Source: Dehalococcoidia bacterium
Lineage (GTDB): Bacteria; Chloroflexota; Dehalococcoidia; Lucifugimonadales; Australimonadaceae
Assembly: GCA_965248455.1 (NCBI GenBank)
Contig: OZ252105.1
Location: 2,269,360-2,333,359 of the forward strand
DNA: 64,000 nucleotides
Direction: 5' to 3'
Every line of letters begins with the position of its first letter. Position 1 is the first letter of the stretch. This document shows, one piece after another, positions 15,570 to 59,831 of this stretch. Position numbers and translations under genes: made by a program. The notes beneath the pieces were generated by a model. It was not told the DNA's origin, ran no database searches, and saw nothing but the letters and a program-made list of their open reading frames with translations.

Positions 15570-15604
15570 CGTCGCTCCCGCGCAGGCGGGAGCCTCGCAT
15601 CCCC
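15570..15604. repeat. Solo REP-like GC hairpin unit between convergent genes (possible bidirectional terminator)
   Basis: The unit is cgtcgctcccgcgcaggcgggagcctcgcatcccc, with stem 15574-15581 / 15586-15593. The same unit recurs at 27748, 28107, 39232, 39342, 43808 and 45699, with a degenerate copy at 10123. Confidence 0.7.
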
Positions 15605-25946: not shown

Positions 25947-26462
25947 CTAGCCGTCGTACTCCTCGTCGCCGGGGGTGGTGGTCGTTACCAGCGCAGGCTC
26001 GTTGCGAGAGGGTCGCGAGAAGAGCGCGAACCCCGTGAAGAGGACGATGCCCGTCACGATGGAGGCATCCGCCAGGTTGAAGATGTACCAGGGGCCGACG
26101 TCGATGAAGTCGGTTACATGCCCCTGTGTGATGCGGTCCGCTAGGTTGCCGCAGGCGCCGGCGAACATGAGGCCGAGGCTCGCCTGCAGCCAGAGGCTGG
26201 CATCCTTCTGCGTTCGGTAGAAGAGCACGAGCACCCCGATGCCCACGATCGAGGCGAGGGTCAGCGGCACATTGTGGCCCCCGAACAGGCCGAACGCACT
26301 GCCGGAATTCGCCACGTGCGTGAACCGGAAGAAGCCGTCGGTAGGCCACGACTGGTACAGCGGCAGCGTCAGCACGATGCCGAGCTTCGACAGCTGATCT
26401 GCGGTGAAGGCTACCAGCGCTATCAGAACGACGACGCCATGCCGATCGAAGAAACCTATCAT
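25947..26462 (-). CDS. lspA: Signal peptidase II (lipoprotein signal peptidase)
   Basis: Motifs NSGSAFG and FNLADASIVTG. I chose the internal Met (MIGFFDRHG...) because the 224-aa track ORF extends over the repeat/IS target region. Confidence 0.85.
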   Translation of the reverse strand: MIGFFDRHGVVVLIALVAFTADQLSKLGIVLTLPLYQSWPTDGFFRFTHVANSGSAFGLFGGHNVPLTLASIVGIGVLVLFYRTQKDASLWLQASLGLMFAGACGNLADRITQGHVTDFIDVGPWYIFNLADASIVTGIVLFTGFALFSRPSRNEPALVTTTTPGDEEYDG

Positions 26463-26558
26463 CACCCCAAAGTCTACCAGCGCCCGCAAAGCGTGGCGAG
26501 AATATACGCTCCCTCGCCGCGTGCGAAACGACTCCCAAACCAACGACAACTGCCCCTT

Positions 26559-26732
26559 GTATGGTGGTGAGAGGCGGGGTAGGCCGTTTGCCCCTTGGTC
26601 GCTGAGACCGTGCGTAAGCATGACCGCCCCGCCTCTATTCCACCCGCCCTACCGGTAGCCCGAACAGTTGCCTGAGCTAGTGAGCTCGTATTCACAAGGC
26701 AGGGCACGGAAGGGCAGTCAGGAGCATAGCGT
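26559..26732 (+). ncRNA. Candidate IS110 bridge (guide) RNA encoded in the non-coding left end
   Basis: A 10-bp stem (26570-26579 / 26627-26636) encloses tgcccctt, identical to the left flank at 26551-26558. It also encloses gcgtaag, the reverse complement of the right junction at 27688-27694. Further on, acagttgc at 26664-26671 equals the element's last 8 nt before the TT core (27681-27688). Confidence 0.55.
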
Positions 26733-27671
26733 ATGGACTCATCCCTCTGCATCGGCATAGACGTTTCCCAGGATTGGCTCGATCTCGCGGCTCACCCAAC
26801 CGGACAACCCCAGCGCTTCAAGACCACTCCCGCCGGCCTGCATTCCCTCGTCGAGCACTGTCGCGATGCTCAGCCCCGCCTGATTGCCTTCGAAGCCTCC
26901 GGCGGTTACGAACGCCCTCTCTCCCACGCACTCACCCACGCCCAACTCCCCTTCGCCATCCTCAACCCCCGCAACGTCCGTTACTATGCCCGCTCCACCG
27001 GCGTCCTGGCTAAGACCGACCGCATTGATGCGGCCGTCATCGCCCAGTTCGCCCACGACATCCGCATCCAGCCGAAGCCTGCGCCGTCGCGCCCCGAGCA
27101 GACCGTGCGCGATCTTGCCACCCGCCGCAATCAACTGGTGGGGGACCACACGCGGGTGCGACACCAAGCCCGGCTGTTCTCCGGCGCAAGCCTGGCCAGC
27201 GCGAAGCGCCATCTCGCCTTCCTGAAGCGGGAGATCGCGGCGGTGGAGCAGGAACTGCGGAGGGTCATCGCCCAGGATGTCTCCCTGCGCGAGCGTTGGG
27301 AGCGGCTGCGGAGCGTTCCTGGCGTGGGTGAGACCCTAGCGGCAGCGCTACTCGGCAGTATGCCGGAGCTGGGACACTTGAACCGAGCAGCGGTCGGGAT
27401 GCTGGCAGGCCTCGCCCCGCACGCCCGCGACAGCGGGAAGCGCGAGGGGAAGCGCTTCTGCTGGGGCGGGCGTGCAAACGTGCGGAGGGCGCTGTACATG
27501 CCTATGCTCTCGGCAGTCCAGCACAACCCCGTGATACGCACGTTCTACCAGCGGCTGCTGGACCAGGGTAAGCCGAGGAAGGTGGCGCTCGTCGCATGCA
27601 TGCGCAAGATGCTGACCATACTGAATGCCATCCTGCGTGAGGAGACCACCTGGGACCCACAAATCGCTTGA
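26733..27671 (+). CDS. IS110-family DEDD transposase/recombinase
   Basis: 312-aa ORF. N-terminal GIDVS, FEASGGYE and KTDRIDA form the RuvC-like DEDD set. The C-terminal part shows the SVPGVGETLAAALL...RKMLTILNAIL pattern. Confidence 0.9.
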   Translation: MDSSLCIGIDVSQDWLDLAAHPTGQPQRFKTTPAGLHSLVEHCRDAQPRLIAFEASGGYERPLSHALTHAQLPFAILNPRNVRYYARSTGVLAKTDRIDAAVIAQFAHDIRIQPKPAPSRPEQTVRDLATRRNQLVGDHTRVRHQARLFSGASLASAKRHLAFLKREIAAVEQELRRVIAQDVSLRERWERLRSVPGVGETLAAALLGSMPELGHLNRAAVGMLAGLAPHARDSGKREGKRFCWGGRANVRRALYMPMLSAVQHNPVIRTFYQRLLDQGKPRKVALVACMRKMLTILNAILREETTWDPQIA

Positions 27672-27690
27672 CCTGCTATCACAGTTGCTT

Positions 27691-28620
27691 ACGCCATAGC
27701 CCCAATGATTGCTACATTGGCCGCATACGTCGTTCCCCCGAATCCTACCGTCGTTCCCGCGAAGGCGGGAACCTCGCAGAGCTAGTCTCAGAAGTCTCCG
27801 CGCCCCTGTCAGCGGCAAAATGGTGCAACGCAAAGCGTAACAATGACTGGATGCGCTACGACATACGACTATCAGAGACGCTCTTGACACCCAATGTCGT
27901 CTTGGACGAACGAGGTCAAAGCCTTCGGTGCGACTTCTGAGACAGGCTCCGCATCCCTGTCCCCCTGCGTGACCTTCGGGCGGTTCGTGAACCGCCCGAA
28001 GGTCACGCCACCCCAAACGTACCCCCAACCCAACGACAACTGCCCATTGCGCCATCGCCCCACCAGCCCCTACATTGGTTGCATGCGTCGTTACCGCGTC
28101 CGATGGCCGTCGTTTCCACGAAAGCGGAGACTTCGTCCCTTACGGATTCTGCCGAAATGAATCAAAACGAGTCAGAATGAACCGGTTCTACGCCTGCCTC
28201 AGTCCTTCTGCCCCCTGCAGGTCCCTTCTCCCTTGAGGGGAGAAGGTTAGGATGAGGGTGAAGCCTCAAGCGCAGCCCTGGCTCCATCGCCCGCGTAGAC
28301 GATAGGAAATGCAACGAAATGCGACCAAATGCAACTGAATTAAAAGTTTCGCCACTCCTGGCCACTCCTGACGAGGCCAACCACGACCACAACCAGGGCC
28401 GGCTGGCCCACCGCATACGAGTGAGCGGAGTGCCAAACGAGGCCACGGTGACCTCATTTCCAGCCTCGCCGCTAGGAGTAAACGAGGCCAAACAGGGCCA
28501 AATAGGGCCAGGGTTCACCCCCCCCCCGTCGTTCCCGTGCCCGCATCTACGAGAGAAATGATAGGGAATGAGCGGAAATGAGCGGAGATTAAAAGTTTGC
28601 CACTCCTCGCCACTCCTGAA
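27691..28620. repeat. Mosaic repeat block R1 (two IS110-target cores/REP-like units, a 20-bp-stem palindrome, two 10-bp-iteron modules, a C10 tract)
   Basis: Its sub-elements recur at 38962-39445 and 45283-45810, in the opposite orientation. No convincing ORF. See findings for coordinates of the sub-elements. Confidence 0.75.
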
Positions 28621-38961: not shown

Positions 38962-39445
38962 AAATAGTGGCTCCATTGGCCTCATTTGGCTCTATCTACT
39001 CCTAGCCGAGAGTTGGAAGTGAGGCCGGGGTGGACTCGTTTGCGGTTCCGTTCACTCGTGGGCACGAGACCACATGGCTTCATTTAGCGGACTCGTTGGC
39101 ATCATGCGGCCTCATTTCGTAGGATAGAGGACGGGGGGGGACAGCCTCCAGGAGTGGCCAGGAGTGGCAAAACTTTTAATTCTGTTCCGTTTTGTTCCAT
39201 TTCGTTCCATTCCCTATCGTCTACGCGGGCCGGGATGCGAGGTTCTCGCCTTCGCGGGGGCCTTTGGATACCTCCTCCCCCCTGAGCGCCCTCACCCGAT
39301 GCTTCGCATCGACCTCTCCCATATGCAGGGAGAGGTGAATACCCACCTTCGCGCGAACGACGGTTGGTTTTCGATGAAACGACGTATGCGAACTATAGTA
39401 GGGCTGAGGGAGGCAATGGCGCAATGGGCTGTTGTCGTGATTCGG
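38962..39445. repeat. Mosaic repeat block R2 (iteron modules, G8 tract, REP-like units, IS110-target core), opposite orientation to R1
   Basis: 39149-39227 is the 10-bp iteron module. 39232-39260 and 39342-39363 are REP-like units. 39378-39438 is the core. The G8 tract is at 39133-39140. Confidence 0.75.
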
Positions 39446-40182: not shown

Positions 40183-40321
40183 GGTGGCTGGCCTGTATGT
40201 GCATGTCGCTAGCTTGCGCTAGGGAGGAACCGACGAAGGGGCGACTCGACCGGCGAGCCGCTCCTGTTCGTGGCGAATGAGGTCAGTTAGACGGTAACCA
40301 TCTACGAGATAGCGCGCTAGA

Positions 40322-41365
40322 TGTAGTTCCCAGGGACGTTGTTTACAGCCGGGAGGCGGGAGTAGCCCCGCCGATGCCGCCGTGTGGACGCCGGTGATTG
40401 TAATACGCGAGGAACCCAGGCAGCGCGTTGAGCCGTTCATCATTGGAGTAGTACGGTCGCTGGTAGGCCCACTCGGCCTGCATGATCTTGTTGAACGCCT
40501 CCGCCTTGCCGTTGGTCTGAGGCCGGAAAGGCCGTGTGCGCTTCAACCGCAGGTTCCTGGCCGCCGCCGTGTCGGTGAAGATGCGGCTCACGTAGCAGGC
40601 GCCGTTGTCGGTCAGGATGCGCTCGACGGCGATGCTCTGGCGCTCGAAGTGGGCAAGTGCCCGGACAAGGAAGGCGGCGGCAGTCGGGCCGCGTTCGTCC
40701 GGCAGGGCCTCGACGTAGGCATAGCGGGAGTGGTCATCCACGGCCACGTGGAGGAAGTCGAAACCGAGGCGGGGGCCGCGCTGAGGACCGCTGTGGGTCT
40801 CCGCGAAGCCGGGCAGGATGCGCTTGCCGCCACCCTGCGGGATGCGGCCGAGTTTCTTGATGTCGAGGTGAACCAGCGCGCCGGGGCGGGCATGCTCGTA
40901 GCGAACGATCTCCCGGGTGGTGCGATGGAGCCACGCGAGGCGGTGGAGTCCGGCGCGGCGCAGGACAGCGTAGACGGTGGAGGGGGCGATGCCCAACCGC
41001 CACCCGATGCGGTGCGGCCCCCAGGCAAGCATGCGGCGTGCAGCGCAGATGGCCGCTTCCTGCAGCTGACCGGTTTGGCGGGGGCTGCGCAGGGGATGGC
41101 TGGAGCGGTCGAGGAGCGCGTCTGGCCCACCTTCACGGAACCGCCGCACCCACTTGGTGACGGTCGCGCGGGAGACGCGGAACAAGCGGGCTACTTCGGC
41201 TTGGGGCCAGCCGGACAACACCTGTTCGACCAACTCGGCGCGGGTCACGGGGGTCAAGCGTGCGTTACGATGGGTCATGAGGGGCCTCCTGTTACTGCTG
41301 GGTTTCGTTCACACAACAGCAACAGCGGGGCCTCTCACCTGTCAACAACCTCTATGGGAACTACA
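40322..41365 (-). mobile_element. Complete IS481-family insertion sequence (1044 bp) with a 6-bp target-site duplication
   Basis: Imperfect terminal inverted repeats of about 26 bp: tgtagttcccagggacgttgtttaca at 40322 against tgtagttcccatagaggttgttgaca (reverse complement) ending at 41365. They are flanked by direct GCTAGA at 40316-40321 and 41366-41371, the NCTAGN-type target known for IS481. Confidence 0.9.
40343..41278 (-). CDS. IS481-family transposase (HTH plus DDE integrase core)
   Basis: 311-aa intact ORF with an N-terminal HTH (AEVARLFRVSRATVTKWVRRF) and an rve-type core (HLDIKKLG...DNGACY...PQTNGKAEAFN). Confidence 0.95.
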   Translation of the reverse strand: MTHRNARLTPVTRAELVEQVLSGWPQAEVARLFRVSRATVTKWVRRFREGGPDALLDRSSHPLRSPRQTGQLQEAAICAARRMLAWGPHRIGWRLGIAPSTVYAVLRRAGLHRLAWLHRTTREIVRYEHARPGALVHLDIKKLGRIPQGGGKRILPGFAETHSGPQRGPRLGFDFLHVAVDDHSRYAYVEALPDERGPTAAAFLVRALAHFERQSIAVERILTDNGACYVSRIFTDTAAARNLRLKRTRPFRPQTNGKAEAFNKIMQAEWAYQRPYYSNDERLNALPGFLAYYNHRRPHGGIGGATPASRL

Positions 41366-43686: not shown

Positions 43687-45060
43687 TTAGTCACGCGCGG
43701 CGCCTGCTGCGGTTGCTACGCGACCCTGCAGCGACCACGGCGTCGTACGCGTGATGCGCACGTTGACGATGTCGCCGAGGGCTATGCCCTCACCCGGGGG
43801 GAGAAGGGGCGAGATTCCCGCCTGCGCGGGAATGACGGGGTGGGCGTCGGGAGTGACGGGTTGGGCGTCGAAGAAGACGAGCTTGTCCGTGCGCGTGCGC
43901 CCCTGCAGGCGTCCGTGGCTGTGGCCGTCCACAAGCACCTCTTCGGTCGAGCCTAGGTAGGTGTTGTTGATGCCGGTGAGGATCGTTTCCTGCGCGGCCT
44001 CTATCGCCTTCAGGCGGCGGTGCTTCTCCTCCTGGGGCACGTCGTCGGTCATCTTGCGCTCGGCGAACGTGTTGGGGCGCGTCGAGTACATCGCAACGTG
44101 CACCTTGTCGAACCCGATGTCGCGCACCATCGCCAGCGAATCCTCGAACTGCGCATCCGTCTCCCCCGGAAAGCCCACGATGAGGTCGGTGACCATCGCG
44201 ACGCCGGAGATGGACGCTCGCACGCGGCCAACGAGTTCGCGGTACTGGGCGTTTGTGTAGCCCCGGCGCATCCTCGCCAGCACGTCGTCGTTGCCCGCCT
44301 GGAAGGGGAGGTTGATGTTCTCCATCACACGCGGCAGAGCTGCAACAGCATCGATGATGCGCTGGCTCATGTCGTTCGGGTGCGACGTCAGGAAGCGGAT
44401 CCGCGCCAGCTCCGGCACGCGCTCGTGGATGGCCTCCAGCAGGTCGGCGAGGTCAGGCGCGCCGTCGAGGTCATGCCCGTAGGAGTCGACGTTCTGCCCG
44501 AGCAGCGTCACTTCGCGCACGCCTCGCGCCGTCAGCATCCGGCACTCCTCCACCAGTTCCGCGATGGATCGCGAGACCTCTCGGCCCCGGCGGTAGGGGA
44601 TGATGCAGAACGTGCAGAACTTATCGCAGCCGTGGATGATCGGCACATGCGTCGTAACCGACGGATGGCCGGGCACGAACGGCCCTGCGCAGCCATCCGG
44701 GTCCACGCCCAGCCGGTCGCCTACGATCTCGATGAGCGGCTCGAACTGCTGCGGCTGCATGAAGACGTCGACGTAGGGGTAGCGCTTGCGGAGGTCGTCC
44801 TGCTTCGGCCCGACCATGCAGCCCATGACAGCGAGCGTCTTCTCCGGGAAGCGCTCCTTCCACGGTTTGAGCGACGTGAGCATCCCCACGACCCGATCCT
44901 CGGCCTGCTGCCGCACGACGCAGCTGTTGAGCACGATTACGTCGGCCTGTTTGGCGTTGGGCTCCCATTGCAGGCCGAGCTGCTCCAAGCCTGCCCCCAT
45001 CCGCTCGGAGTCGGCTTTGTTCATCTGACACCCAACTGTCCAAACGTGGTAACTGGTCAT
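43687..45060 (-). CDS. miaB: tRNA-i6A37 methylthiotransferase MiaB (radical SAM)
   Basis: I chose ATG 45060 (MTSYHVWTVGCQMNKADSE). The radical-SAM cluster is GCDKFCTFC, followed by a C-terminal TRAM domain. The 519-aa track version would run across tRNA-Ser. Confidence 0.9.
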   Translation of the reverse strand: MTSYHVWTVGCQMNKADSERMGAGLEQLGLQWEPNAKQADVIVLNSCVVRQQAEDRVVGMLTSLKPWKERFPEKTLAVMGCMVGPKQDDLRKRYPYVDVFMQPQQFEPLIEIVGDRLGVDPDGCAGPFVPGHPSVTTHVPIIHGCDKFCTFCIIPYRRGREVSRSIAELVEECRMLTARGVREVTLLGQNVDSYGHDLDGAPDLADLLEAIHERVPELARIRFLTSHPNDMSQRIIDAVAALPRVMENINLPFQAGNDDVLARMRRGYTNAQYRELVGRVRASISGVAMVTDLIVGFPGETDAQFEDSLAMVRDIGFDKVHVAMYSTRPNTFAERKMTDDVPQEEKHRRLKAIEAAQETILTGINNTYLGSTEEVLVDGHSHGRLQGRTRTDKLVFFDAQPVTPDAHPVIPAQAGISPLLPPGEGIALGDIVNVRITRTTPWSLQGRVATAAGAARD

Positions 45061-45282: not shown

Positions 45283-45810
45283 TCAGGAGTTGTCAGGAGT
45301 GCGCAGGAGCGGCGAAACTTTTATTTTCCGCTCATTTCCGCTCATTTCCTATCATTTCTCTCGTAGACGGTGGCGATGGGGCTGGGATGCGCTTGGGGCT
45401 TCGCCCTCATCTGGCCGTCTCCAGAGGGGATGAGACCTGCGAAGAAGGGGCCGCTCCTGTTTTGCTTGTTTTCGGCCATTTCTGCCACTTATCTCACTTC
45501 TGGAGCGCGCGGTTGTTCAGGAGTGCGCAGGAGTGGGGACCCCCCATACCTTGGCCCGATTTGGCCCGATTTACCTTTGGCTGCGGGGCCGGAACGAGGC
45601 CAAGGGCGGCCTCGTGTGGCACGCCACTCACCCGTAACCGTGAGAGGGCGCCCATGAGGAACGTCCCCTGCGGGGGCCTCACGCCACCTCTCCAGGCCGG
45701 GGATGCGAGGTTCCTGCCTTCGCTGGAACGACGGAAAATATTCGCGTAAACGACGCATGCAACCAATGTAAGGGCGGGCGGGAAGATGGCGCAATGGGCA
45801 GTTGTCGCGG
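45283..45810. repeat. Mosaic repeat block R3 (iteron modules, GGGGACCCCCC tract, REP-like unit, IS110-target core)
   Basis: 45283-45370 is the iteron module. 45551-45572 holds the tttggcccga x2 iterons. 45699-45734 is a REP-like unit. 45749-45807 is the core. Confidence 0.75.
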
Positions 45811-56253: not shown

Positions 56254-56345
56254 CCATCGCCCGCTATGACCAGCAGCCGAGGTAACCGCCTTAGGCCGCT
56301 TTGCTGGCGACTCAGAAGGCTCGGCGTTTGGTAAGTGCCCCTAGG

Positions 56346-57291
56346 TGTAGTTCCCAGGGACGTTGTTTACAGGCATGAGGCGGGAGTAGCCCCGCCGATG
56401 CCGCCGTGTGGACGCCGGTGATTGTAATACGCGAGGAACCCAGGCAGCGCGTCGAGCCGCTCGCGGTTGGAGTAGTACGGTCGCTGGTACGCCCACTCGG
56501 CCTGCATGATCTTGTTGAACGCCTCCGCCTTGCCGTTGGTCTGAGGCCGGAAAGGCCGCGTGCGCTTCAATCGCAGGTTCCTTGCCGCCGCCGTGTCGGT
56601 GAAGATGCGGCTCACGTAGCAGGCGCCGTTGTCGGTCAGGATGCGCTCGACGGCGATGCTCTGGCGCTCGAAGTGGGCAAGAGCCCGGACAAGGAAGGCG
56701 GCGGCAGTCGGGCCGCGTTCGTCCGGCAGGGCCTCGACGTAGGCATAGCGGGAGTGGTCATCCACGGCCACGTGGAGGAAGTCGAAACCGAGGCGGGGGC
56801 CGCGCTGAGGACCGCTGTGGGTCTCCGCGAAGCCGGGCAGGATGCGCTTGCCGCCACCCTGCGGGATGCGGCCGAGTTTCTTGATGTCGAGGTGAACCAG
56901 CGCGCCCGGGCGGGCATGCTCGTAGCGAACGATCTCCCGGGTGGTGCGATGGAGCCACGCGAGGCGGTGGAGTCCGGCGCGGCGCAGGACAGCGTAGACG
57001 GTGGAGGGGGCGATGCCCAACCTCCACCCGATGCGGTGTGACCCCCAGGCGAGCATGTGTCGTGCAGTGCAGATGGCCGCTTCCTGCAGCTGACCGGTTT
57101 GGCGGGGGCTGCGCAGGGGACGGCTGGAGCGGTCGTGGAGCGCGTCCGATCCGCCTTCGCGGAACCGCCGCACCCACTTGGCGACAGTCGCGCGGGAGAC
57201 GCGGAACAAGCGGGCTACTTCGGCCTGGGGCAGCCAGCCAACACCTGTTCGACCAATTCGGCTACGGGCCGCTCGCGGAGTGTTAGCGCCC
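56346..57291 (-). mobile_element. IS481-family copy, defective: internal 1-nt deletion, divergent/mosaic 5' part, left inverted repeat missing
   Basis: Near-identical to 40322-41225 from the terminal repeat (tgtagttcccagggacgttgtttaca at 56346) up to about 57225. It then reads ggctg-ccccag against ggctggccccaag (frameshift). Identity drops and ends at about 57291. No gggaactaca terminus was found. The 391-aa track ORF is a chimeric read-through. Confidence 0.8.
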
Positions 57292-57810: not shown

Positions 57811-58827
57811 TCATACTCGTATGCAGGCGACAGAGTGTCCGGGACGCTTCTCTTCGAGCTGGGGCACCGTGGTGCGGCATTCGTCCACGGCCATGGGGCA
57901 CCGTGTATGGAATACGCAGCCTGTCGGGGGGTTCAGAGGACTGGGGATAGTCCCTTCAAGGATGATCCTCTCCCTGCTGCGTTCAGCCCTAGGGTTCGGG
58001 ATTGGCACTGCGGACATCAGTGCCTTTGAGTAGGGGTGCAGTGGCTCCTGGAAGATGCTGACGCGGTCCGCTATCTCCATGATCTTGCCCAGGTACATGA
58101 CCGCCACGCGGTCAGAGATGTGGCGAACCACTGAGAGGTCATGGGCGATGAAAAGATAGGTGAGCCCGAACTGCTTCTGCAGGTCTTCCAGCAGATTGAT
58201 GAGCTGCGCTTGTATGGAAACGTCCAGTGCTGAAACCGGCTCATCGGCGACGATAAAGTCTGGCTGCACGGCCAGTGCCCGGGCGACACCGATCCGCTGG
58301 CGCTGCCCCCCGCTGAACTCATGCGGATAGCGGTCTGCCATATTGGGATTCAGGCCTACGGTACGGAACAGGTCGGCTACCCGCGCCAGGTACTCCTCTT
58401 TCGTTTCGACCAGTTTATGCACCCGGAGCGGCTCGCCGACGATATTGCCGGTCTTGATCCGTGGGTTGAGCGAACTGTACGGGTCCTGGAAGACGACCTG
58501 GATGCGCCGACGCATCGCGCGCATGGCCCCGCTTTTGAGGGTTGCGAGATCGACACCGTCGAACATGATGCGGCCGCTCGTGGGTCGGTAAACCTGGAGT
58601 ATGACGCGGCCGATGGTGGTTTTGCCTGAACCGCTCTCGCCCACGAGCCCCAAGGTTTCTCCTCGCCGTATGGTGAAGCTCACGCCGTCCACGGCTTTGA
58701 CCTCTCCGACCTGGCGCTGCAGGATGACGCCTGACATCACCGGGAAGTGCATCTTGACGTCGCAGACTTCCAGCAAGTTGTCCTGGCTCGATGCCGGTGT
58801 GGTGGGGGCGGAGGAGGTTAGCGTCAT
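57811..58827 (-). CDS. Peptide/nickel-type ABC transporter ATP-binding protein (OppF/DppF-like)
   Basis: I chose ATG 58827 (ATGA overlap with the upstream gene). Walker [10 protein letters not shown], signature FSGGQRQR, and a C-terminal oligopeptide-transporter extension (GCVFHTRCP). Confidence 0.9.
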
Positions 58828-59831
58828 GCTTTCGTCTGCACGAGTTCCAGGGGTCCGAACTCGTGTCCTTTCCAACACGCATACACGTGTTCGCTGCTGT
58901 CCTTGGACGAGAGGGGAGGAATCTCGGCGCGGCAGTGGTTGTCCGCATGGGGACAACGGGGAACGAAGGAACAGCCGGGAGGAAGCCGGTCCAGATCAGG
59001 TGGCATGCCCTCGATGGACGCTAGCTTGCCCTCGCGGTCCACATCCAACCGAGGCACGGAGCCCAGCAACCCGCGAGTGTACGGGTGCTTCGGCGTTTCG
59101 TATATCTCGTCCGCCGTTCCGCGCTCGATGATCTTGCCCGCGTACATAACGTTGACGCGGTCTGCGTAGCGGGCAACCACTCCCAGGTTGTGCGTGATGA
59201 TGATGACGGCCGTGCCCAGCTCGGTGCTCAGTTTCTTGATGAGTTCGAGTATCTGGGCCTGAATCGTCACGTCCAGTGCGGTGGTGGCTTCGTCGGCGAG
59301 CAGCAACTGTGGATTGCAACTCAGGGCGATTGCGATCATCACTCGCTGGCGCATCCCCCCGCTGAACTGGTGCGGGTAGTTGCTCAATCGGCTTTTTCCG
59401 TCCGGTATGCCAACCATCTCTAGGAGTTCTACACTCCGGCGAACAGCGGCTTCCGGTGAGTATCCCATGTGGATCTCAAGCGTCTCTGTGAGTTGCCGTC
59501 CGATCGTTAGAACAGGGTTCAAGGAGGTCATAGGCTCTTGGAAGATCATGGCTATCTTGTTGCCACGGATGCTTCGCATCTGACGCTCAGAGAGTTTCAG
59601 TAAATCATGGCCCTCAAAGATGACTTCTCCGCCGACTATCCTGCCGGGCGGGTTGGGGATGAGCCGGAGCAGCGACAGGGCGCTCACGCTCTTGCCGCAC
59701 CCGCTCTCACCGACGAGGCCCAGCGTCTCGCCCTCTTGGAGGTCGTAACTCACGCCGTCCACGGCCTTGACGATGCCGCCTTCGGAGTTGAACTCGGTGC
59801 GAAGGTCCCGCACCTCGAGTAACGTTCCCAA
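58824..59831 (-). CDS. Peptide/nickel-type ABC transporter ATP-binding protein (OppD/DppD-like)
   Basis: Walker [10 protein letters not shown], signature FSGGMRQR, C-terminal GCSFVPRCP motif. Confidence 0.9.

What the first reader, a model, noticed from the sequence alone, without database searches (positions are those of the whole stretch)
26557..27690. IS110-family element whose left end carries flank-matching guide segments (bridge-RNA-like)
The DEDD recombinase ORF (26733-27671) sits in an element with a 174-nt non-coding left end and only about 19 nt after the stop codon.

The element interrupts one copy of a dispersed repeat. The left flank ...caacgacaactgcccc-TT (to 26558) and the right flank TT-acgccatagcccc (from 27689) line up with the uninterrupted copy caacgacaactgcccattgcgccatcgcccc at 28031-28060. 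A TT dinucleotide is present at both junctions.

Inside the left end, a 10-bp stem (agaggcgggg 26570-26579 / ccccgcctct 26627-26636) encloses two short segments:
- tgcccctt (26589-26596) is identical to the left flank plus core at 26551-26558.
- gcgtaag (26612-26618) is the exact reverse complement of the core plus right flank cttacgc at 27688-27694.

Further on, acagttgc (26664-26671) equals the last 8 nt of the element before the core (27681-27688).

One segment matches the left target in sense and one matches the right target in antisense, and a second region matches the donor end. This is the geometry reported in 2024 for the target-binding and donor-binding loops of IS621/IS110 bridge RNAs. 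The matches would tie this RNA to the repeat core as its programmed target.
Basis: partly seen in the sequence, partly recalled or inferred. Interest (0 to 1): 0.8.

Follow-up and report, generated by a model that had tools for sequence, protein, structure and literature searches.

The report
IS110 insertion sequence with bridge RNA

Summary
At most 29 of 200,000 dinucleotide shuffles of the left end reproduce the target-guide pair.

The ORF is an IS110-family RNA-guided transposase. It passes the NCBIfam and Pfam cut-offs and is 30% identical to IS621, with D-E-D-D and Ser aligned.

The 175-nt left end folds into two stem-loops, each with an internal loop. Across 14 relatives, 92% of cells pair and 14 of 26 pairs show compensatory change. 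A covariance model built from this family also finds the experimentally validated E. coli IS621 bridge RNA.

The guide loops co-vary with the flanks. Four close variants each match their own flanks. Across 77 left and 56 right guide/flank pairs, 0 of 20,000 permutations reach the observed match. The handshake nucleotide is complementary in 29 of 29 cases.

An identical second copy sits at the same position in another copy of the same dispersed repeat.

One correction: the shared core is CT (26556-57 and 27688-89), not TT. The element therefore runs from TGTATGG at 26558 to ACAGTTG at 27687.

A sigma-70-like promoter exists only across the circle junction. No transcript or activity data exist.

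Verdict: interpretation supported. This is a new member of a known kind, of modest interest.

The parts
26531..26555 (+). Left half of the interrupted dispersed repeat. Its last bases are the left target (LT), of which TGCCC (26551-26555) is matched by the guide.
   Evidence: the same flank is seen in L080
26556..26557 (+). Left copy of the CT core dinucleotide
   Evidence: CT is the only dinucleotide shared by both junctions in WIN, L001, L002-5/9 and L006-8
26558..27687 (+). IS110-group insertion sequence, from TGTATGG to ACAGTTG: 1130 bp, or 1132 bp with one core copy
   Evidence: 1132/1132 identity to the copy in L080
26560..26565 (+). TATGGT, the -10 hexamer of the promoter that exists only in the circular form
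   Evidence: junction scan; no promoter in the linear element
26566..26711 (+). Predicted bridge RNA (extent of the covariance-model match)
   Evidence: 91 bits and the only hit in the 64-kb window; structure
26569..26580 (+). 5' arm of the basal stem of the target-binding stem-loop. It pairs with 26626-26637.
   Evidence: helix 1: 6 of 12 pairs show changes on both sides
26587..26595 (+). Left target guide (LTG), UUUGCCCCU. Bases 26589-26595 equal LT+core in sense.
   Evidence: covariation
26597..26609 (+). Apical hairpin of the target-binding loop (GGUC GCUGA GACC)
   Evidence: helix 2
26610..26618 (+). Right target guide (RTG), GUGCGUAAG. Bases 26612-26618 are the reverse complement of core+RT (CTTACGC).
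   Evidence: covariation
26619..26620 (+). Handshake guide of the target loop (CA), complementary to the last two donor bases TG of ACAGTTG
   Evidence: The C is invariant. The concept is from PMC11208158.
26626..26637 (+). 3' arm of the basal stem of the target-binding stem-loop
26659..26662 (+). 5' arm of the basal stem of the donor-binding stem-loop. It pairs with 26701-26704.
   Evidence: helix 3
26664..26671 (+). Left donor guide (LDG), ACAGUUGC, equal to the right end of the element plus the first core base
   Evidence: The LDG co-varies with the right end across relatives: ACAGTCG, ACGGTTG, ATGGTTG, ACAGATA, ACACTTG.
26674..26687 (+). Apical hairpin of the donor-binding loop
   Evidence: helix 4 (4 of 6 pairs with compensatory change)
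26694..26698 (+). Right donor guide (RDG), ACAAG, the reverse complement of core plus the first three bases of the element (CTTGT)
   Evidence: CAAG is nearly invariant
26699..26700 (+). Handshake guide of the donor loop (GC). G26699 is complementary to the last LT base, C26555.
   Evidence: complementary in 29 of 29 elements (G-C 20, A-T 5, C-G 4)
26720..26724 (+). AGGAG ribosome-binding site, 8 nt before the ATG
26733..27671 (+). IS110-family RNA-guided recombinase, 312 aa. D10, E54, D96, D99 and S234 align with the IS621 catalytic residues.
   Evidence: residue list from PMC11208158
27668..27673 (+). TTGACC, the -35 hexamer of the junction promoter. It overlaps the stop codon.
   Evidence: conserved as TTGACC/TTGACG in L001, L002, L006
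27681..27687 (+). Left donor (LD), ACAGTTG, the last 7 bases of the element
27688..27689 (+). Right copy of the CT core
27690..27790 (+). Right half of the interrupted dispersed repeat. Its first bases, TACGC (27690-27694), are the right target matched by the RTG.

Best explanation
The region is an intact and probably active insertion sequence of the IS110 group. It consists of a DEDD/Ser recombinase gene and, in its 175-nt left end, a bridge RNA of about 150 nt.

Inferred mechanism, by homology with IS621:
1. The element excises as a circle. This joins ACAGTTG-CT-TGTATGG and creates a TTGACC-N18-TATGGT promoter that drives the RNA from about 26571.
2. The RNA folds into two stem-loops with internal loops.
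3. [quoted passage not shown] Together they specify TGCCC-CT-TACGC.
4. In the second loop, ACAGUUGC and ACAAG hold the circle junction in the same way.
5. A recombinase tetramer exchanges strands at the CT core. The handshake bases after each 3' guide pair with the partner DNA.

The specified site lies in a sub-family of a roughly 110-nt dispersed repeat. The element therefore lands in repeats and not in genes.

Shown here: anatomy, homology, conserved structure, guide/flank and guide/end covariation, and a second identical copy at the same kind of site.
Inferred: transcription, circle formation and catalysis.
For: Protein:
- PF01548 and PF02371 match.
- NF033542, 'IS110 family RNA-guided transposase', scores 211.9 bits against a cut-off of 140.
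- 30% identity to IS621, E 2e-38, with catalytic residues aligned.

Structure:
- RNAalifold gives two stem-loops with internal loops.
- 92.2% of cells pair, against 35-45% for slid controls, and 14 of 26 pairs change on both sides.

Homology of the RNA:
- Model R1, built from this family, hits the IS621 bridge RNA at L081:1602-1750 over its full length (32.1 bits, E 1e-5).

Guides:
- Window matches pass permutation tests.
- Four close variants each match their own flanks.
- 77 LT pairs score 3.69 of 7 against 2.07 +/- 0.13 permuted. 56 RT pairs score 4.11 of 5 against 1.51 +/- 0.14. In both, 0 of 20,000 permutations reach the observed value.
- 53 distinct target-guide pairs occur among 69 elements sharing the donor guide ACAGTTGC.
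- The LDG co-varies with the right end.
- The handshake base is complementary in 29 of 29 cases.
- L001 and L002, from the same MAG and 89.5% identical overall, differ in the left end almost only in the target loop.

Activity:
- L080 carries a 1132/1132 identical copy in another copy of the repeat with identical junctions.

Promoter:
- Present only across the junction and conserved in four variants. None is found in the linear form.
Against: - No transcript, circle junction or recombination product has been observed for this element.
- Rfam has no bridge-RNA family to confirm it. The only Rfam match, sX15, is on the opposite strand and below its gathering score.
- G-U versus A-C counts in the helices do not decide the strand.
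- Only 5 of 7 non-core LTG positions match the left flank here.
- The three unoccupied repeat copies in the window do not carry the exact target (AT core, and G for A).
- No empty copy of the exact target was found (0 hits in JGI metagenomes).
- A few relatives (L011, L020) have right flanks that do not match their RTG.
Confidence: 0.93

Rival explanations
1. The short matches between the left end and the flanks are coincidences in GC-rich sequence, and the left end is only a 5' UTR.
For: Individual 7-mers are not rare. 3.2% and 2.0% of shuffles contain the LT and RT 7-mers respectively.
Against: The joint ordered occurrence is 1.5e-4, and 5e-6 with the donor match. The same positions track different flanks in dozens of relatives, with 0 of 20,000 permutations reaching the observed match. 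The structure is conserved with compensatory changes.
Confidence: 0.01
2. The functional RNA is on the minus strand (sX15-like), or the structure is an antisense or cis-regulatory device that controls transposase expression. On this view the flank-like segments are leftovers of target capture or nested insertion.
For: - Rfam sX15 matches the minus strand over the whole left end: 38 bits here, and 54 bits in Stenotrophomonas L070 against a gathering score of 55.
- sX15 was seen on Northern blots in Xanthomonas together with its complement asX7 (PMC3300014).
- Wobble counts do not fix the strand.
- Nested self-insertion does happen, as in IS621 in L081.
Against: - The homologous IS621 RNA is functional on the recombinase strand (PMC11208160).
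- The conserved junction promoter points to the plus strand.
- In L006, IS621 and many metagenome copies the RDG reads GCAAG against donor CTTGT. That is a G·T wobble for a plus-strand RNA but a C·A mismatch for a minus-strand one.
- No minus-strand promoter was found.
- An antisense RNA could coexist with the bridge RNA without replacing it.
Confidence: 0.04
3. It is a bridge-RNA element by descent but is now an inactive relic fixed at this site.
For: There are no activity data. Only one copy lies in the 64-kb window. Two outer LTG positions mismatch the flank.
Against: - The ORF is intact with all catalytic residues.
- The RNA structure, both ends and the junction promoter are intact.
- A 100% identical copy sits in a different repeat copy, which implies recent movement.
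Confidence: 0.1

Closest known systems
IS621 of E. coli (IS110 group): recombinase plus 177-nt bridge RNA (Durrant et al. 2024, PMC11208160; Hiraizumi et al. 2024, PMC11208158)
   Same: - Domain pair and catalytic D-E-D-D plus Ser.
- RNA encoded in a long left end, on the recombinase strand.
- Two stem-loops with internal loops. The 5' side pairs the bottom strand and the 3' side pairs the top strand.
- CT core, handshake bases, and a short right end carrying a -35 box.
- Very similar donor ends: ACAGTAT-CT-TGTAT in IS621, ACAGTTG-CT-TGTAT here.
- In both, the LDG matches through the core C and mismatches the core T.
- Both target a dispersed extragenic repeat.
- The covariance model from this family detects the IS621 RNA.
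   Different: - Only 30% protein identity, and no detectable DNA similarity (one search found only short IS110 fragments).
- Shorter spacing between the left end and the first stem: 8-11 nt here, about 29 nt in IS621.
- An extra basal extension of the donor stem in the close family.
- RTG pairing of 7 nt here, against 4 nt in wild-type IS621.
- High-GC host. The closest relatives are in Dehalococcoidia MAGs.
- No experimental data.
IS1111-group elements with seekRNA / right-end bridge RNA (second IS110-family group, as described in PMC11208160)
   Same: DEDD recombinase, RNA-guided choice of target, circular intermediate.
   Different: IS1111 elements have a long right end, a short left end and long subterminal inverted repeats. 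This element has a 175-nt left end and a 16-nt right end, so it belongs to the IS110 group.
REP-targeting IS110 elements of Pseudomonas putida (ISPpu9, ISPpu10; PMC12288879 and bioRxiv 10.64898/2026.03.19.712850, listed)
   Same: IS110-family elements inserted at a fixed position in dispersed extragenic repeats.
   Different: Different host, repeat family and RNA architecture (the ISPpu10 abstract reports a distinct architecture). I read only their abstracts, so the comparison is not detailed.
Rfam RF02234 sX15, and its complement asX7, of Xanthomonas / Stenotrophomonas (PMC3300014)
   Same: Full-length similarity in sequence and structure to the left end. The Stenotrophomonas loci L034 and L070 are IS110 relatives of this element.
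   Different: The Rfam model is on the strand opposite to the recombinase gene. All hits here are below its gathering score. It is annotated as an sRNA of unknown function, not as a bridge RNA.

Membership tests
IS110 family, IS110 group insertion sequence | Recombinase with an N-terminal DEDD RuvC-like domain and a C-terminal Tnp domain | tested here: met
   PF01548 at 75.2 bits and PF02371 at 67.5 bits, both above cut-off. NF033542 at 211.9 bits against a cut-off of 140.
IS110 family, IS110 group insertion sequence | Catalytic D, E, D, D and Ser conserved (IS621 D11, E60, D102, D105, S241) | tested here: met
   D10, E54, D96, D99 and S234-G235 align with them. The residue list is from PMC11208158.
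IS110 family, IS110 group insertion sequence | Long non-coding left end, short right end, no terminal inverted repeats, and no duplication beyond the shared core | tested here: met
   Left end 175 nt, right end 16 nt. Only CT is shared at both junctions across variants.
IS110 family, IS110 group insertion sequence | Site-specific insertion, with independent copies at the same sequence | tested here: met
   The window and L080 copies have identical junctions in different copies of a repeat. L002-5/9 and L006-8 behave likewise.
IS110 bridge RNA | Two stem-loops, each with an internal loop, encoded upstream of the recombinase on the same strand | tested here: met
   (92.2% of cells paired; 14 of 26 pairs with compensatory change)
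IS110 bridge RNA | First loop: the 5' side equals LT+core in sense, and the 3' side is the reverse complement of core+RT. Both co-vary with the flanks. | tested here: met
   7 + 7 nt in the window. Covariation.
IS110 bridge RNA | Second loop: the 5' side equals the right end plus core, and the 3' side is the reverse complement of core plus the left end. It is conserved with the element ends. | tested here: met
   LDG of 8 nt and RDG of 5 nt. LDG variants track right-end variants.
IS110 bridge RNA | Handshake guides after the RTG and RDG, complementary to position 7 of the partner DNA | tested here: met
   29 of 29 complementary for the donor-loop base against the genomic LT. The C after the RTG is invariant and faces the donor G.
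IS110 bridge RNA | Detectable homology to a validated bridge RNA | tested here: met
   Model R1 hits the IS621 bridge RNA at 32.1 bits, E 1e-5, over its full length. Rfam 15 has no plus-strand family that hits even IS621.
IS110 bridge RNA | Sigma-70 promoter reconstituted at the RE-LE circle junction | tested here: met
   TTGACC-18-TATGGT exists only across the junction and is conserved in 4 variants. None is found in the linear form. This is a consensus match only.
IS110 bridge RNA | The RNA is transcribed and is required for recombination, and reprogramming the loops moves the target | not testable with these tools
   Needs RNA-seq or RACE and a recombination assay.
IS1111 group | Long right end carrying the RNA, short left end, long subterminal inverted repeats | tested here: not met
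   The right end is 16 nt and the RNA is in the left end.

The most novel reading that the evidence does not exclude
Two readings go beyond 'one more IS110'.

(a) The target loop is a hot spot of coordinated replacement. L001 and L002 lie in one genome and are 89.5% identical overall. In the left end they differ almost only in the target loop, and each matches a different repeat. This could point to a dedicated way of rewriting both guides together, for example templated from DNA.

(b) The complementary strand may give an sX15-type antisense RNA that regulates the bridge RNA.

Neither reading is excluded by my data, and neither is shown.
Probability: 0.12. Interest if true: 0.55.

Novelty: new member of a known kind. 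Interest (0 to 1): 0.3.

Why it matters
The region can now be annotated precisely: element ends, core, guides and programmed 12-bp target. That explains why one copy of a dispersed repeat is split.

It adds a compact (312 aa) high-GC orthologue to the catalogue of natural bridge recombinases. Its relatives supply 53 natural target-guide sets on one conserved donor, which may interest people looking for new orthologues.

It does not change understanding of the mechanism. NCBI's own model already names such proteins 'IS110 family RNA-guided transposase'.

A side result may be useful to curators: Rfam sX15 appears to be the reverse complement of a bridge-RNA family.

Tried and rejected
- Rfam scan of the region. 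There was no plus-strand family, only sX15 on the minus strand below threshold. Rfam also fails to hit the IS621 bridge RNA, so the absence says nothing about membership.
- DNA search against plasmids. It returned only short IS110 coding fragments and was not useful.
- Metagenome scan for an empty copy of the target, ACGACAACTGCCCMTTRCGCCAT. It gave 0 hits, so I could not show an unoccupied exact target.
- Idea that the two differences from the repeat consensus (CT vs AT, A vs G) were made by the insertion. I rejected it because both occupied copies also share further sub-family differences downstream (CCATA, TGATTGCTAC). Heteroduplex at the core also could not change the second RT base.
- TT as the core. 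I rejected it from the relatives.
- Strand assignment from G-U versus A-C counts. The counts were about equal, so this was inconclusive.
- Automated boundary calls were wrong, or the register was shifted by 1-2 nt, for some distant loci, for example L014, L017 and the L061/L074/L078 group. I left them in the statistics, which makes the test conservative.
- I did not run structure prediction or the large protein searches, because the family assignment was already unambiguous.

Full report
**Observation.** Reading 26400-28200 confirms every string and coordinate in the finding.
- tgcccctt is at 26551-26558 and again at 26589-26596.
- gcgtaag at 26612-26618 is the reverse complement of cttacgc at 27688-27694.
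- acagttgc is at 26664-26671 and at 27681-27688.
- The 10-bp stem 26570-79 / 26627-36 is part of the minimum-free-energy fold (-77.4 kcal/mol, z = -2.8).
- The only long ORF is 26733-27671.

These matches are not chance.
- The two target 7-mers, in the right order and within 60 nt, occur in 29 of 200,000 dinucleotide-preserving shuffles of the left end.
- Adding the 8-mer donor match leaves 1 of 200,000.
- Using all other window positions as mock junctions gives 8 of 125,122.

**The protein.**
- It has the two IS110 domains: PF01548 at 75 bits and PF02371 at 68 bits.
- It passes NCBIfam NF033542, 'IS110 family RNA-guided transposase', at 211.9 bits against a cut-off of 140.
- I located IS621 in E. 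coli from its bridge-RNA sequence. That sequence matched at 100% identity and is followed by a gene annotated 'IS110-like element IS621 family transposase'.
- The two proteins align end to end at 30% identity, E 2e-38.
- D10, E54, D96, D99 and S234 fall on IS621 D11, E60, D102, D105 and S241. Those are the residues shown to be essential in PMC11208158.

**Relatives and the register of the junction.** A genome-collection scan returned 79 loci.
- Six copies lie in one Dehalococcoidia MAG (81-83% aa identity) and three in another (70%).
- Printing their ends side by side shows four versions of the element with nearly identical ends (TGTATGG...ACAGTTG) but different flanks.
- The only dinucleotide common to both junctions in all four versions is CT.
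- In the window the junctions happen to share CTT.
- The core is CT (26556-57 and 27688-89). The element is 26558-27687, the left end is 175 nt and the right end is 16 nt.

**Guides follow flanks.**

| Element | Target site | First loop, 5' side | First loop, 3' side |
|---|---|---|---|
| Window | TGCCC-CT-TACGC | UGCCCCU | GCGUAAG |
| L002-5/9 | CCCCATC-CT-AACCT | CCCCAUCCU | AGGUUAG |
| L006-8 | (T)CCCC-CT-CTCCC | UCUCCCCCU | GGGAGAG |
| L001 | CTAGCC-CT-CTCCC | CUAACCCU (one mismatch) | GGGAGAG |

- These pairings are read.
- L001 and L002 come from the same MAG and are 89.5% identical overall. In the left end they differ almost only in this loop.
- I scanned metagenomes for the conserved donor-loop motif and obtained 45 more loci. 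I took guide positions from covariance-model alignments. I took element boundaries from the donor-side motifs only, so that the test is not circular.
- Over 77 non-redundant left pairs, identity is 3.69 of 7, against 2.07 +/- 0.13 when flanks are permuted.
- Over 56 right pairs, identity is 4.11 of 5, against 1.51 +/- 0.14.
- No permutation out of 20,000 reached the observed value in either case. Some automated boundaries are wrong, so this is a conservative test.
- Among 69 elements with the same donor guide ACAGTTGC there are 53 different target-guide pairs.
- The donor guide itself changes together with the right end in more distant relatives: ACAGTCG, ACGGTTG, ATGGTTG, ACAGATA, ACACTTG.
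- The base after the right donor guide is complementary to the last base of the genomic left target in 29 of 29 cases: G-C 20, A-T 5, C-G 4. This is the 'handshake' position described for IS621.

**Structure and homology of the RNA.**
- Fourteen distinct left ends align well.
- RNAalifold gives two stem-loops, each with an internal loop.
- On my hand-curated version of that structure, 92.2% of cells pair, against 35-45% when partners are slid. 14 of 26 pairs show changes on both sides.
- A covariance model built from this alignment finds exactly one site in the 64-kb window, 26566-26711 at 91 bits.
- It finds nearly all relatives, and also the validated IS621 bridge RNA at L081:1602-1750 over the whole model (32.1 bits, E 1e-5).
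- Rfam 15 has no family that hits the IS621 RNA, so the absence of a plus-strand Rfam hit here is uninformative.

**Promoter.**
- The tool finds no sigma-70-like promoter on either strand of the integrated element.
- Applying the same rule to the joined right and left ends gives TTGACC (27668-73, overlapping the stop codon), an 18-nt spacer and TATGGT (26560-65).
- The same arrangement appears in L001, L002 and L006.
- A start about 7 nt downstream would fall at the foot of the first stem.
- This mirrors the junction promoter reported for IS621. It is only a consensus match.

**Target.**
- The element splits one copy of a roughly 110-nt dispersed repeat.
- Other copies lie at about 28021-28140, 39227-39440 (-) and 45695-45810 (-). 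Hairpin-only fragments are at 15570 and 43810.
- The three intact copies in the window read CCC-AT-TGCGCCAT(C/T), not CCC-CT-TACGCCATA.
- An exact-protein look-up found a second contig (L080) with a 1132/1132 identical element. It sits in a different copy of the repeat, at the same position and with the same junctions.
- That copy shares further sub-family differences with the window's copy.
- The element therefore targets a sub-family of the repeat that matches its guides. The identical second copy argues for recent activity.
- I could not find an empty exact target.

**Comparison and verdict.**
- Everything testable matches the IS110-group bridge-RNA system of Durrant et al. and Hiraizumi et al. 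(2024). The membership table lists each feature.
- The differences from IS621 are those of a distant orthologue. They include 30% protein identity, a 7-nt right target guide, a shorter leader and an extended donor stem.
- Insertion into dispersed extragenic repeats is a known habit of the family (references; ISPpu9).
- This is a new member of a known kind. It is worth annotating correctly but is not surprising to a specialist.
- Transcription, circle formation and RNA dependence remain inferred.

Noticed in passing
window 26558-26725 (minus strand); also L070:1317-1471, L034:127-290, L001:1329-1486, L013:503-661 (all minus): Rfam RF02234 (sX15, Xanthomonadaceae sRNA) matches the strand opposite to the recombinase over the whole left end: 38 bits here and 54 bits in Stenotrophomonas, against a gathering score of 55. 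Schmidtke et al. (PMC3300014) detected sX15 and its exact complement asX7 by Northern blot and noted 10 homologues in S. maltophilia. asX7 is therefore probably an IS110 bridge RNA and sX15 its antisense, or the Rfam family is on the wrong strand.
   Followed up: partly
window 26531-26557 + 27690-27790; 28021-28140; 39227-39440 (-); 45695-45810 (-); fragments at 15570-15597 and 43810-43837 (-): A dispersed intergenic repeat of about 110 nt. It has a conserved head (CGACAACTGCCCATTGCGCCAT), a middle block (CTACATTGG..GCATRCGTCGTT) and a terminal hairpin (CGTCGTTCCCGCGAAGGCGGGAACCTCG). Some copies (28021, L080) carry an extra upstream hairpin (GTGACCTTCGGGCGG...CCGCCCGAAGGTCAC). It looks REP- or MITE-like, and its function is unknown.
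   Followed up: partly
L081:1480-1750 (E. coli NZ_CP024240.1, near rhlE): Upstream of this IS621 copy, the first 72 nt of the left end are repeated: TGTATTATCC...GCCGTATCGGGCCT, then TGTATTATCC again. It looks as if one IS621 inserted into the DNA encoding the left target guide of another copy, which necessarily resembles the target.
   Followed up: no
window 40317-40616 vs 56341-56640, and 41204-41239 vs 57227-57262: Two stretches about 16.02 kb apart are 95% (300 nt) and 89% (36 nt) identical, which suggests a duplicated gene or segment. 58075-58701 and 59124-59771 also share 71-86% similar blocks about 1.05 kb apart, probably tandem paralogues.
   Followed up: no
L011, L020 (right flanks); L001 (left flank): In a few relatives one flank does not match the corresponding guide. 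In L011 the RTG reads CTAACTC against a flank of CTAGGGC. In L020 it reads CTATAGT against CTTGAAG. L001 has one LTG mismatch. Possible causes are off-target insertion, recombination between copies, or later mutation.
   Followed up: no
window 28220-28257: A weak match to Rfam CRISPR-DR57 (21.8 bits, E 0.12, gathering score 39). It is a single hairpin (CCCTTCTCCCTTGAGGGGAGAAGG) with no array around it, so it is most likely chance.
   Followed up: no
L080:106-1173 (-): Next to the second copy of the element lies a gene with HTH_38 and a faint rve (integrase) hit. It may be an IS30-like transposase, which would make that neighbourhood rich in mobile elements.
   Followed up: no
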